Under the pieces are notes generated by a model. It did not search any database, had not been told where the DNA came from, and saw only the letters and a program-made list of their open reading frames with translations. A program made the position numbers and the translations under genes. A DNA stretch of 64,000 bases from Candidatus Bathyarchaeia archaeon (GTDB lineage Archaea; Thermoproteota; Bathyarchaeia; Bathyarchaeales; Bathycorpusculaceae), in assembly GCA_038883855.1 (NCBI GenBank), contig JAVZLH010000001.1:141563-205562 (forward strand). The letters are read 5' to 3'. Within the stretch, counting starts at the first letter, position 1, and each line of letters begins with the position of its first letter. This document shows, piece after piece, positions 94-1,207 of this stretch.

Positions 94-568
94 GTGCACC
101 AATTTAATGTAATGTGGGAAATCACCAGTTTGGTAGGAGTTAAACTGGATGTAAGGGCGAAGACTGAAGCAATCAATTTTGATGTCAAAGCTAAACTGGA
201 AGAAAGCGAGGAGCGCAAGAGCCAGATGGTTGTTGTAGGCTTCCGCCTTTTTCTGGCAACTAAACCAAGTATTGTTGAAGTTTGAAATTGAGGGCACCGC
301 AACTTTAGCGGGAAAGGGACATGGAAATAAACGAAATGCTGGAAATCGACCCAGAAACAAAAGTGCCCTATGTCTTTCAAAAATTTACTAACATGCCTTT
401 ACAGCAATTATTTGCTTTCAACAATTTTAGGCGCCCTCCACCACCCGTGATTTGTTATTCTCTAAAAGACAAGACGCGTCTGGAGAAGAGGTAAGCGTGG
501 AAACGGGTGAAACTGGAACTGTAGGCGTTGAGGTTGCAACGGAGGAAGTAAGTGTTTCTGAAAAATAG
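94..568 (+). pseudogene. Multiply frameshifted hypothetical gene (pseudogene or error-rich contig edge)
   Basis: Protein-like segments join across frames: ...INFDVKAKLEE...FLATKPSIV / FEIEGTATLAG / MEINEMLEIDPETKVPYVFQK / ...DLLFSKRQDASGEEVSVETGE...SEK, ending at TAG 566-568. The true start is uncertain. Confidence 0.5.
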
Positions 569-580
569 TTTTCAGTAACA

Positions 581-588
581 TTTAATAG
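581..588 (+). promoter_or_regulatory. Putative TATA box for the queT transcript
   Basis: TTTAATAG lies about 30-40 nt upstream of the GC-rich leader at 621. Confidence 0.4.
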
Positions 589-620
589 GAATAATTCTCT
601 TCCGTTTAGAAACTGTTAAT

Positions 621-675
621 GGCGGGTGAGTGGGCCTCCACCCGTTCCGCAATAAAACCCCGGAGTAGGAGGTGA
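621..675 (+). ncRNA. Candidate cis-regulatory leader (preQ-type riboswitch-like pseudoknot) upstream of queT
   Basis: Stem GGCGGGTG(621-628)/CACCCGTT(639-646); CCTCC(635-639) is complementary to the SD GGAGG(668-672); A-rich AATAAAA(651-657) followed by CCCC; minor stem TCCG(646-649)/CGGA(661-664). Confidence 0.45.
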
Positions 676-679
676 AAAG

Positions 680-1207
680 TTGAAATTTGACAGTAGAGAT
701 TTAGCGTTGACAGCAGTTTTTGCCGCACTTTACGCTGCGCTGGTCATTCTTCTGGCGCCAATAAGTTTCGGGGTCTATCAAGTTAGGGTTGCTGACGCTT
801 TACTTCCCTTATCAATGATATTTGGAGTTCCCATCGCCATTGGGTCAAGCTTAGGTTGTTTGGTTGCGAATGTTTACGGCGGTTTAGGCGCCATCGACAT
901 TGTGGGCGGAGCGATTGCAAACTTTCTGGCATGTGTCTCAGCGTGGTATGTTGGCAGAAGTGGGTTTGCAAGTAGGCTTCTGGGAAGTTTTGTTGAAACA
1001 CTGGTTATAACTGTAATTGTTGGTGGTTATTTGTCGTTAATATTTGATGTCCCCGTTGAGCTTGGATTGTTCGGCATTTTCGTCGGCTCTATCATTTCGA
1101 TAAACATTTTAGGCTTTGCCCTTGAAGAAGTTTTACAACGAAGCGGCGTATGGAAAAGGCACGCTGGAAAAGTTGCAACAAACATTGATGCGCATGGTAC
1201 TACATGA
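680..1207 (+). CDS. queT: QueT family transporter (ECF S-component, 7-deazaguanine precursor uptake)
   Basis: Signature AALYAALVILLAPISFGVYQVRVADAL; hydrophobic 175 aa; SD GGAGGTGA at 668-675; TTG start. Confidence 0.85.
   Translation: MKFDSRDLALTAVFAALYAALVILLAPISFGVYQVRVADALLPLSMIFGVPIAIGSSLGCLVANVYGGLGAIDIVGGAIANFLACVSAWYVGRSGFASRLLGSFVETLVITVIVGGYLSLIFDVPVELGLFGIFVGSIISINILGFALEEVLQRSGVWKRHAGKVATNIDAHGTT

What the first reader, a model, noticed from the sequence alone, without database searches (positions are those of the whole stretch)
611..682. Candidate archaeal preQ0/preQ1 riboswitch in the queT leader
Seen: a GC-rich element of about 55 nt sits between a TATA-like box (581-588) and the queT start. 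It has an 8-bp stem (621-628/639-646). CCTCC (635-639), at the loop/stem junction, is the exact complement of the SD GGAGG (668-672). A second small stem (646-649/661-664) encloses an A-rich AATAAAA tract, and loop GGG (632-634) could pair with the following CCC. Established: bacterial preQ1-II riboswitches lie upstream of queT (COG4708) and form a pseudoknot whose loop anti-SD sequesters the SD; preQ1-I uses a stem-loop plus an A-rich tail; archaea build archaeosine from preQ0. Inference: a translational OFF switch sensing preQ0 or preQ1. To my knowledge preQ riboswitches are not described in archaea, and the primary sequence does not match the known class consensus, so it could be a new class or variant.
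Basis: partly seen in the sequence, partly recalled or inferred. Interest (0 to 1): 0.8.

Follow-up and report, generated by a model that had tools for sequence, protein, structure and literature searches.

The report
Archaeal queT-leader pseudoknot, likely preQ0 riboswitch
The short RNA leader in front of this archaeon's queT transporter gene is a strongly conserved folded element that can hide the ribosome-binding site, and it is most likely a previously undescribed archaeal riboswitch for the tRNA-modification precursor preQ0.

Summary
The element is real and is not chance. A leader of about 60 nt (window 620-674) is nearly identical in front of QueT genes whose proteins are only 32-45% identical. 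It was found in 91 of 151 sampled genomes of the window's class, in 15 genomes of other classes of the phylum, and in 23 of 151 genomes of a second archaeal phylum.

Covariation supports a bipartite hairpin, P1 620-625/647-652 and P2 626-633/638-645. Many compensatory variants support pairing of the apical anti-SD (635-639) with the SD (668-672).

An A-rich linker and an invariant CCCGG follow the hairpin; their partners are unknown.

Of 127 distinct copies, 120 precede queT, 2 precede queE, 1 precedes an unknown ORF followed by queC, and 4 are cut by contig ends.

No Rfam 15 family matches, including preQ1-I, -II and -III, and my literature searches found no description.

The window's genome (85% complete) has arcTGT, but no QueC or QueD was found, so it probably salvages preQ0.

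Best reading: a new class of translational OFF riboswitch that senses preQ0. Ligand binding is untested.

The parts
581..588 (+). TATA-like box TTTAATAG. The inferred transcript start is about 609-613, so the fold sits at the 5' end of the mRNA.
   Evidence: Read. A TATA-like heptamer (at least 6 of 7 letters) was found in 105 of 124 family loci. In 74 of the 124 it starts 29-35 nt upstream of P1. The window's own box starts 40 nt upstream. The start-site position is inferred from the usual archaeal TATA-to-start spacing, which I recall; it was not measured.
620..625 (+). P1 5' strand (UGGCGG). It pairs with 647-652. In the window, 621 G opposite 651 A is a mismatch.
   Evidence: The column of 621/651 reads GC 73, AU 13, GU 6, UA 5, CG 1, other 1. 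The column of 620/652 reads UA 31, AU 20, UG 4, GU 3, GC 2, CG 1, other 38. The four inner pairs are invariant in 100 of 100. One search shows the same covariation in the second set.
626..633 (+). P2 5' strand (GUGAGUGG). It pairs with 638-645, with an A629/C642 mismatch. U646 is unpaired or pairs with G626.
   Evidence: the column of 631/640 reads UA 82, GC 6, AU 3, CG 3. Compensatory cases read: A-U in L076, A-U in L069 and L071, C-G in L082, L077 and L115. Model R2, built with P1+P2, scores diverged copies 8-12 bits above R1.
634..637 (+). Apical loop GCCU of P2.
635..639 (+). Anti-SD CCUCC. It is half in the loop and half in the top of P2, and it pairs with 668-672.
   Evidence: Matched variants are listed in the report. 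Register table. Own-versus-cross duplex test.
638..645 (+). P2 3' strand (CCACCCGU).
647..652 (+). P1 3' strand (CCGCAA).
653..657 (+). A-rich linker (UAAAA). In the family it is 5-14 nt long and ends in AAA.
   Evidence: Alignments.
658..663 (+). CCCCGG. The CCCGG core is nearly invariant and its partner is unknown.
   Evidence: The mutual-information scan found no covarying partner.
668..674 (+). Shine-Dalgarno GGAGGUG, 5 nt before the start codon. Positions 668-672 pair with 635-639.
   Evidence: Duplex energy -11.2 kcal/mol.
680..1207 (+). queT coding sequence (175 aa, TTG start).

Best explanation
Window 620-674 is the aptamer and expression platform of a cis-acting riboswitch at the 5' end of the queT mRNA.

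The RNA folds into a long two-part hairpin, P1 and P2. The apical loop and upper 3' strand of P2 carry an anti-SD. After P1 come an A-rich linker, an invariant CCCGG, and then the SD.

Proposed mechanism:
- When the free 7-deazaguanine base preQ0, the archaeosine precursor, is plentiful, it binds the invariant core. That core is the P1/P2 junction letters GCGGGU and GUUCCGC, the AAA and the CCCGG.
- Binding docks the 3' tail onto the hairpin.
- Docking favours the anti-SD:SD pseudoknot, so the ribosome cannot load and queT translation falls. In other genomes the same element controls queE or queC.
- When preQ0 is scarce, the anti-SD is partly held in the top of P2, the SD is free, and the importer is made.

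Shown here: conservation, the P1/P2 and anti-SD:SD pairings, and the gene association.
Inferred: the ligand, its binding site, the OFF direction, and the transcript start.
For: 1. Conservation far above that of the protein. 28 of 30 QueT loci from relatives carry the motif by pattern, and one more (L011) by model. The QueT proteins fall to 32-45% identity while the leader stays nearly identical.

2. Spread.
- 91 of 151 genomes of the class.
- 27 of 151 in the phylum sample. 15 of these lie outside the class: families f44 9/15, f56 3/3, f60 2/2 and one more.
- 23 of 151 in the phylum of a MAG titled Promethearchaeota.
- A single copy in the window's own genome, at 80.5 bits; the next best match scores 14 bits.

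3. RNA-level structure.
- P1+P2 is 94.4% paired, with 59 cells changed on both sides and covariation score 0.152 against 0.070 in shuffles; 0 of 500 shuffles reach it. Slid controls are 41-59% paired.
- The second set is 92.4% paired with 29 such cells; 0 of 500 shuffles reach it.
- G.U pairs are kept, which fits RNA on this strand only.

4. Anti-SD:SD covariation.
- Matched pairs include CCUCC/GGAGG, CCUCCC/GGGAGG, CCUCCU/AGGAGG, CUCCC/GGGAG, CUUCC/GGAAG, CCCUCU/AGAGGG, UCCGAC/GUCGGA, CCUCGCA/UGCGAGG, CCCA/UGGG and CACCUC/GAGGUG.
- Register table over the 110 of 122 copies that parsed: CC goes with GG in 42 and with GGG in 3. CCC goes with GGG(G) in 46 and with GG in 4. CCU goes with AGG in 7.
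- A copy's own loop-SD duplex averages -12.59 kcal/mol against -11.13 for crossed partners. 0 of 10000 permutations reach this.

5. Gene association.
- 127 distinct copies: 120 before queT, 2 before queE, 1 before an unknown ORF followed by queC, and 4 cut by contig ends.
- One genome has three copies, before queE-queC, before queE plus a GTP-cyclohydrolase-I-like ORF, and before queT-queC.
- 27 of 31 matches in the second set precede QueT.

6. Physiology. The window's genome has arcTGT at 283.6 bits. No PTPS/QueD was found, and QueC gave only weak N-terminal matches. The organism therefore probably imports preQ0.

7. Precedent. Bacterial preQ1-II and preQ1-III riboswitches lie before queT and hide the SD (PMC11625349 sections 6 and 7).
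Against: - No binding or switching data exist.
- No RNA-seq start site was obtained.
- The window alone does not fold better than shuffles (z = -1.66).
- The invariant core gives no covariation, so the pocket and the partner of CCCGG are unknown.
- Related sequences inflate the shuffle statistics.
- Alignments A5 and A6 were fitted to the model's structure, which leans the counts towards it.
- The window's own copy has a G.A mismatch in P1 (621/651).
- In copies such as L146, L124, L012 and L116 the top of P2 does not pair. 'Anti-SD held by P2' is therefore not universal.
- The genome is only 85% complete, so the missing queC and queD are not proven absent.
- QueE and two of four QueC calls score below NCBIfam cut-offs, although all their top hits are QueE or QueC models.
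Confidence: 0.72

Rival explanations
1. The conserved fold is the binding site of a protein that represses translation of 7-deazaguanine genes. Candidates are a pathway enzyme such as arcTGT or ArcS, or a dedicated RNA-binding regulator. It is not a small-molecule sensor.
For: The computational evidence shows a cis-regulatory structured leader but does not identify the effector. arcTGT, an RNA-binding enzyme, is present in the window's genome. Invariant helix letters could equally be protein contacts.
Against: No candidate regulator gene was seen to travel with the element. The downstream genes are queT, queE and queC only. The element works across two phyla with very different gene sets. A small size, a pseudoknot and an SD inside the fold are typical of the known preQ1 riboswitches.
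Confidence: 0.12
2. It is a riboswitch, but the ligand is not preQ0. It could be preQ1, 7-carboxy-7-deazaguanine, the archaeosine base, or guanine or another purine.
For: Gene context alone (queT, queE, queC) cannot separate pathway intermediates. Bacterial QueT is linked to preQ1 riboswitches (passages).
Against: As recalled background and in PMC5372724 passages, archaea make archaeosine from preQ0, which arcTGT inserts into tRNA. Free preQ1 is not an archaeal intermediate. The window's genome has TGT but no detected preQ0 synthesis genes, so the imported base should be preQ0. No purine-salvage genes were seen downstream of any copy.
Confidence: 0.1
3. It is a ligand-independent structure, that is, a constitutive translational attenuator or an RNA thermometer that merely tunes queT expression through SD pairing.
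For: The anti-SD:SD duplex is stable on its own at -11.2 kcal/mol. Two coded metagenome runs labelled hot springs hold related leaders.
Against: A simple SD-masking hairpin does not need about 25 invariant unpaired or non-covarying letters, nor an invariant CCCGG. The element is restricted to one metabolic pathway, whereas thermometers are not pathway-specific.
Confidence: 0.05
4. One reading: an 8-bp stem 621-628/639-646, a small stem 646-649/661-664, and loop GGG pairing with CCC.
For: RNAfold of 605-700 picks the 8-bp stem. It is pairable in 95.4% of cells. The GG:CC pairs are pairable in 90-93% of sequences, with a weak association at the third pair: 72 of 99 pairable against about 64 expected.
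Against: There are zero compensatory changes in the 8-bp register, and all 500 shuffles reach the observed value. Diverged copies (L076, L074, L069, L071) break it but keep P1+P2. P1 outer pairs covary through all four Watson-Crick types. The 8-bp stem may still be a transient alternative, and the GG:CC contact is not excluded.
Confidence: 0.08

Closest known systems
preQ1-III riboswitch (Rfam RF02680; Faecalibacterium and gut metagenomes)
   Same: It lies in the queT 5' leader. An anti-SD presented by a stem-loop pairs with the SD in the 3' tail to lower translation (PMC11625349 section 7). This is the same kind of expression platform as 635-639 with 668-672 here.
   Different: Per it is about 100 nt long, with five pairing regions, an HLout pseudoknot and a pocket far from the SD, and it is bacterial. 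Here the element is about 60 nt with two stacked helices and one pseudoknot, and it is archaeal. The RF02680 model does not match.
preQ1-II riboswitch (Rfam RF01054; Streptococcaceae and Lactobacillales)
   Same: It lies upstream of queT (COG4708). It gives translational control by burying the whole SD in a pseudoknot helix.
   Different: Per it has four helices P1-P4 in an HLout pseudoknot, the SD forms the pocket floor, and it is confined to Bacillota. No such architecture and no model match were found here.
preQ1-I riboswitch (Rfam RF00522)
   Same: A short G-C-rich P1 is followed directly by an A-rich strand, and then by letters that could pair back into the P1 loop, giving an H-type topology. 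In bacteria it also controls queC, queD, queE and queF.
   Different: Per it is about 34 nt, and its specificity C is preceded by U or A just before the P1 3' strand. Here UU precedes the P1 3' strand in 99-100 of 100 copies, the P1 loop holds a whole extra hairpin with the anti-SD, and there is no model match.
Riboswitch classes already recorded in archaea (TPP, fluoride)
   Same: They are cis-acting leader RNAs in archaea (PMC5473149 passages).
   Different: Those classes are shared with bacteria. In what I sampled, this motif was found only in archaeal records. All 31 bacterial pattern matches failed the model.

Membership tests
preQ1-I (RF00522) | Match to the Rfam covariance model | tested here: not met
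   No hit at E<=10 in window 500-800. No hit at E<=1 in 14 diverse family loci.
preQ1-I (RF00522) | P1 3' strand preceded by UC or AC, with the C pairing to the ligand (PMC11625349 section 4) | tested here: not met
   The two letters before the P1 3' strand are UU in 99-100 of 100 sequences. The first letter of the strand is an invariant C, so a shifted reading cannot be excluded.
preQ1-I (RF00522) | H-type pseudoknot with an A-rich L3 after P1 | tested here: inconclusive
   An A-rich tract after P1 is present. The pairing of the following CCC with loop GG is not shown by covariation.
preQ1-II (RF01054) | Match to the Rfam covariance model | tested here: not met
preQ1-II (RF01054) | Four helices P1-P4 in an HLout pseudoknot, with the SD in P3 | tested here: not met
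   Only P1, P2 and one loop-to-tail helix are supported. SD sequestration as such is met.
preQ1-III (RF02680) | Match to the Rfam covariance model; about 100 nt with five pairing regions | tested here: not met
   No match. The element is 59-78 nt.
preQ1-III (RF02680) | Anti-SD in a stem-loop pairs with the SD of the 3' tail | tested here: met
   Compensatory variants and the register table. This is a likeness in how it works, not membership.
Riboswitch (general) | Conserved structured leader with covariation, tied to genes of one pathway | tested here: met
Riboswitch (general) | Direct, selective ligand binding that changes expression | not testable with these tools
   Needs probing, ITC and reporter experiments.

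The most novel reading that the evidence does not exclude
This is the first riboswitch class specific to archaea, and a fourth and structurally new solution for sensing 7-deazaguanines. It is tuned to preQ0, the archaeosine precursor, rather than preQ1. It is shared by Bathyarchaeia, by records titled Methanomethylicota and Nitrososphaerota, and by a phylum that holds a MAG titled Promethearchaeota. It acts by SD sequestration in a pseudoknot. Its switching may use a strand exchange. In that exchange the top of P2 (GG/CC) opens, the GG pairs with the invariant C-run, and the CC joins the anti-SD:SD helix.
Probability: 0.6. Interest if true: 0.88.

Novelty: new variant of a known kind. Interest (0 to 1): 0.8.

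Why it matters
- Known riboswitches in archaea are few and are shared with bacteria: TPP and fluoride (PMC5473149 passages). A widespread archaeal class would show that archaea evolved their own metabolite-sensing RNAs.
- It would give a fourth fold for 7-deazaguanine recognition to compare with preQ1-I, -II and -III.
- It would show SD-dependent riboswitch control in lineages close to the eukaryotic stem.
- It would mark preQ0 salvage as a regulated, probably community-dependent trait of uncultured sediment and hot-spring archaea.
- It would offer a compact ligand-controlled part for archaeal genetics.
- The motif is also a ready annotation marker for 7-deazaguanine transport and synthesis genes, including unknown ones such as the 277-aa ORF in L150.

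Tried and rejected
- Rfam 15 scans of the window, of 14 diverse members and of the g52 variant found nothing relevant. The only hits were spurious: mir-3167, GlsR5, a tRNA and mascRNA.
Comparative data reject it as the conserved fold.
- Small stem 646-649/661-664 and GGG:CCC: no, or only weak, support.
- The mutual-information scan for a partner of CCCGG found none beyond P1, P2 and the loop/SD register.
- RNA evidence: no RNA holder was listed. Laying three coded runs gave contigs only. There was no cover in the one run on record as RNA. Contigs of many organisms pile up on 606-673 in two runs that are probably DNA. This gives no information on transcript start or expression.
31 of the 80 listed loci, all with bacterial titles, failed the model and are taken as chance.
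- Two weak matches in the second phylum, L238 and L240, have no QueT downstream. I take them as false.
- Rows left out of counts:
  - L064, L067 and L078.
  - L064, L067, L078 and L066.
  - L065 did not parse.
  - Nine near-duplicate or aberrant loci were dropped to fit 100 sources.
- Literature. Searches found no description of this motif.
  - PMC11625349: outline and sections 4, 6 and 7 read.
  - PMC5372724, PMC5473149 and PMC12445698: passages only.
  - Gupta and Swati 2019, 'Riboswitches in Archaea': seen only as a reference entry, not read.
  - McCown 2014 (PMC4145258): not held.
  - Supplements were not consulted and could hold motif lists that I did not see.

Full report
**What is in the window.** The ORF 680-1207 (+, TTG start) is a QueT transporter (Pfam PF06177, E 8e-27). 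Upstream lie TTTAATAG (581-588) and then a G+C-rich stretch, 620-674, that ends in GGAGGUG five bases before the start codon. CCUCC (635-639) is the exact complement of GGAGG (668-672). Folding 605-700 alone is not remarkable: z = -1.66, and 9 of 200 shuffles fold as well. The case therefore rests on comparison with other genomes.

**Conservation.** I searched 61 related genomes with the QueT protein and 54 had a match.
- Of the 30 best loci, 28 carry the leader motif by pattern.
- L011 carries a diverged copy (32.5 bits).
- L008 has a differently built leader.
- The leader stays almost letter-perfect where the QueT proteins are only 32-45% identical.
- In L017 and L018 it sits about 1.2 kb upstream of the queT I had searched with, which directly follows an ORF whose C-terminal cysteine motif looks like QueC (my reading, from recall, not profile-checked). 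A second QueT match lies between the element and that queT.

**Spread.** A covariance model (R1) gave the following.
- One copy in the window's own genome, at 80.5 bits; the next best match scores 14.3 bits.
- 91 of 151 sampled genomes of the same class.
- 27 of 151 in a phylum-wide sample. 15 of these lie outside the class: f44 9/15, f56 3/3, f60 2/2 and one more.

- 49 pass the model, and all 49 have archaeal titles: 40 Bathyarchaeia/Bathyarchaeota, 4 Nitrososphaerota or Nitrososphaeria, 2 Methanomethylicota, 2 unnamed 'archaeon' and 1 Promethearchaeota.
- The 31 loci with bacterial titles all fail the model.

I then centred a search on the genome of the Promethearchaeota-titled record. 23 of 151 genomes of its phylum match, including a diverged subtype (L233-L247).

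**Secondary structure.** It shows no change on both sides of any pair, and all 500 shuffles reach the observed value. A different register is supported.
- P1 is 620-625 with 647-652.
- P2 is 626-633 with 638-645. A629/C642 is a mismatch, and U646 is bulged or pairs with G626.
- On the same alignment this fold is 94.4% paired, with 59 cells changed on both sides and covariation score 0.152 against 0.070 in shuffles; 0 of 500 shuffles reach it. Slid controls are 41-59% paired.
- The pair in the column of 621/651 runs through GC 73, AU 13, GU 6, UA 5 and CG 1.
- The pair in the column of 631/640 reads UA 82, GC 6, AU 3 and CG 3.
- The mutual-information scan ranks these same two pairs at the top.
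- A model carrying P1+P2 (R2) scores diverged copies 8-12 bits higher than R1. For example, L076 rises from 43.3 to 53.7 and L074 from 41.2 to 53.6.
- In the second set the fold is 92.4% paired with 29 compensatory cells; 0 of 500 shuffles reach it.
P1 is in the MFE of 111 of 122 family hairpins.

Caveats: A5 and A6 are fitted to the model, related sequences inflate the shuffle tests, and the four inner P1 pairs never vary.

**Anti-SD:SD pseudoknot.** The loop and upper 3' strand of P2 change together with the SD region. Matched pairs read are:
- CCUCC/GGAGG
- CCUCCC/GGGAGG
- CCUCCU/AGGAGG
- CUCCC/GGGAG(A)
- CUUCC/GGAAG
- CCCUCU/AGAGGG
- UCCGAC/GUCGGA, where the partner is not SD-like
- CCUCGCA/UGCGAGG
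- CCUAGCACC/GGUGCUUGG
- CCCA/UGGG, in the 59-nt L230
- CACCUC/GAGGUG
- CCACC/GGUGG

A register table covers the 110 of 122 copies that parsed.
- Two pyrimidines after the U go with GG in 42 copies and with GGG in 3.
- Three C go with GGG(G) in 46 and with GG in 4.
- CCU goes with AGG in 7.

An alignment-free test on 112 distinct loop/SD combinations gives an own duplex of -12.59 kcal/mol against -11.13 with partners swapped. 93 of 112 are better than their cross mean, and 0 of 10000 permutations reach the observed value. The extra G of GGGAGG cannot be explained by complementarity to the 16S rRNA tail alone (the rRNA 3'-end sequence is recalled). The pairing is therefore with the loop.

**What stays unexplained.** These letters are invariant or nearly so: GCGGGU (622-627), GUUCCGC (644-650), the AAA that ends the linker, and CCCGG (659-663).
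- No covarying partner was found for them.
- GG of the P2 5' strand with the C-run is pairable in 90-93% of sequences. The third pair shows only a weak association: 72 of 99 pairable against about 64 expected.
- L230 lacks that G-run altogether.

I read the invariance as the mark of a tertiary core or of letters with two alternative partners. That is inference.

**Promoter.** A TATA-like heptamer was found in 105 of 124 loci. In 74 of the 124 it starts 29-35 nt before P1. In the window it starts 40 nt before. With the usual archaeal spacing, which I recall, the transcript would begin a few bases before P1. No RNA data could test this.

**Gene context.** Of the 127 distinct copies in the first sets:
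- 114 have a QueT-like ORF directly downstream, by my ORF finder and a profile built from the hits.
- Reading three frames adds L014, L046, L092, L158, L163 (split over frames) and L140 (cut), giving 120.
- L127 and L115 precede QueE-like radical-SAM genes. Their top five NCBIfam hits are all QueE models, but they score below the cut-offs.
- L127's next gene is QueC-like.
- L150 precedes a 277-aa ORF of no family, followed by QueC at 205 bits.
- Four copies are cut by contig ends.

One genome has three copies. They lie before queE-queC, before queE plus an ORF with GTP-cyclohydrolase-I-like motifs (my reading, not profile-checked), and before queT-queC. In the second set, 27 of 31 matches precede QueT, one precedes queE, one is cut, and two are probable false hits. 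Pfam confirms QueT for L233, L225, L227, L228, L223, L243 and L092.

**Physiology of the window's organism.** The genome is 85% complete. It has a TGT at 283.6 bits. No PTPS/QueD was found. QueC gave only weak N-terminal matches of 24.5 and 21.2 bits covering 37-61 of 210 positions. This fits an organism that must import preQ0 for archaeosine. Absence is not proven.

**Mechanism.** I take the element to be a translational OFF riboswitch. Abundant preQ0 binds the invariant core, docks the A-rich/CCCGG tail on P1-P2, and so favours the anti-SD:SD helix, which is -11.2 kcal/mol in the window. When preQ0 is scarce, the SD is free. In most copies the top of P2 holds two or three anti-SD letters. 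This would set up a competition, but a few copies lack it (L146, L124, L012, L116). The ligand and the direction are inferred from the regulated genes and from the bacterial precedent.

**Comparison with known families.**
- No Rfam 15 model matches.
- It works like preQ1-III in that a stem-loop anti-SD pairs with a tail SD, and like preQ1-II in that it lies before queT and buries the whole SD.
- It shares with preQ1-I a short P1 followed by an A-rich strand.
- It fails the defining features of each class that I could test (see Membership tests).
- Seven literature searches found no description. One relevant review of archaeal riboswitches was not readable, and supplements were closed.

**Verdict.** This is a real, widespread and apparently undescribed archaeal cis-regulatory RNA. 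It is most likely a new class of preQ0 riboswitch. Ligand binding awaits experiment.

Noticed in passing
L008 (=L248:1515-1615), L249-L252: A second, differently built queT leader of about 100 nt occurs in 5 of 15 sampled genomes of one genus (g52). It has a hairpin with the same stem letters as P1 (AGGCGGG/UCCGCCU). It also has a CCC...GGG helix around an inner hairpin, and a local hairpin that pairs GCCUCCGC with the SD. The 5-sequence alignment has 3 pairs with compensatory changes. There is no Rfam hit.
   Followed up: partly
L150:5727-6557 (-): Here the element precedes a 277-aa ORF with no Pfam or NCBIfam family, followed by queC (205 bits). The ORF could be an unknown 7-deazaguanine transporter.
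   Followed up: partly
L127/L218, L222, L223 (one genome, G328): One genome holds three copies of the element. They lie before queE-queC, before queE plus a GTP-cyclohydrolase-I-like ORF, and before queT-queC. The third copy has CACGG instead of CCCGG and A instead of the first U before the P1 3' strand.
   Followed up: partly
L063, L064, L067 (family f17, genus g90): A low-scoring subtype has CCCCA in place of CCCGG, a doubled CCGC, and anti-SD/SD pairs such as UCCCCCC/GGGGGGA. All three copies lie before QueT.
   Followed up: partly
window 555-572: A 7-bp inverted repeat, CTGAAAA (555-561) and TTTTCAG (566-572), lies just upstream of the TATA-like box. Its 3' half and the following AACATTTAATAG recur in several relatives. 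It caused a spurious mir-3167 match.
   Followed up: no
window 606-673: In two coded metagenome runs labelled hot springs, contigs of many organisms pile up on the leader. Summed depth is 215-260 there, against 7-57 on the flanks. The leader is thus shared by many members of one community. This says nothing about transcription.
   Followed up: no
L163:6596-6662 and downstream: The QueT downstream of this copy is split over three reading frames. It is either a broken gene or an assembly error.
   Followed up: no
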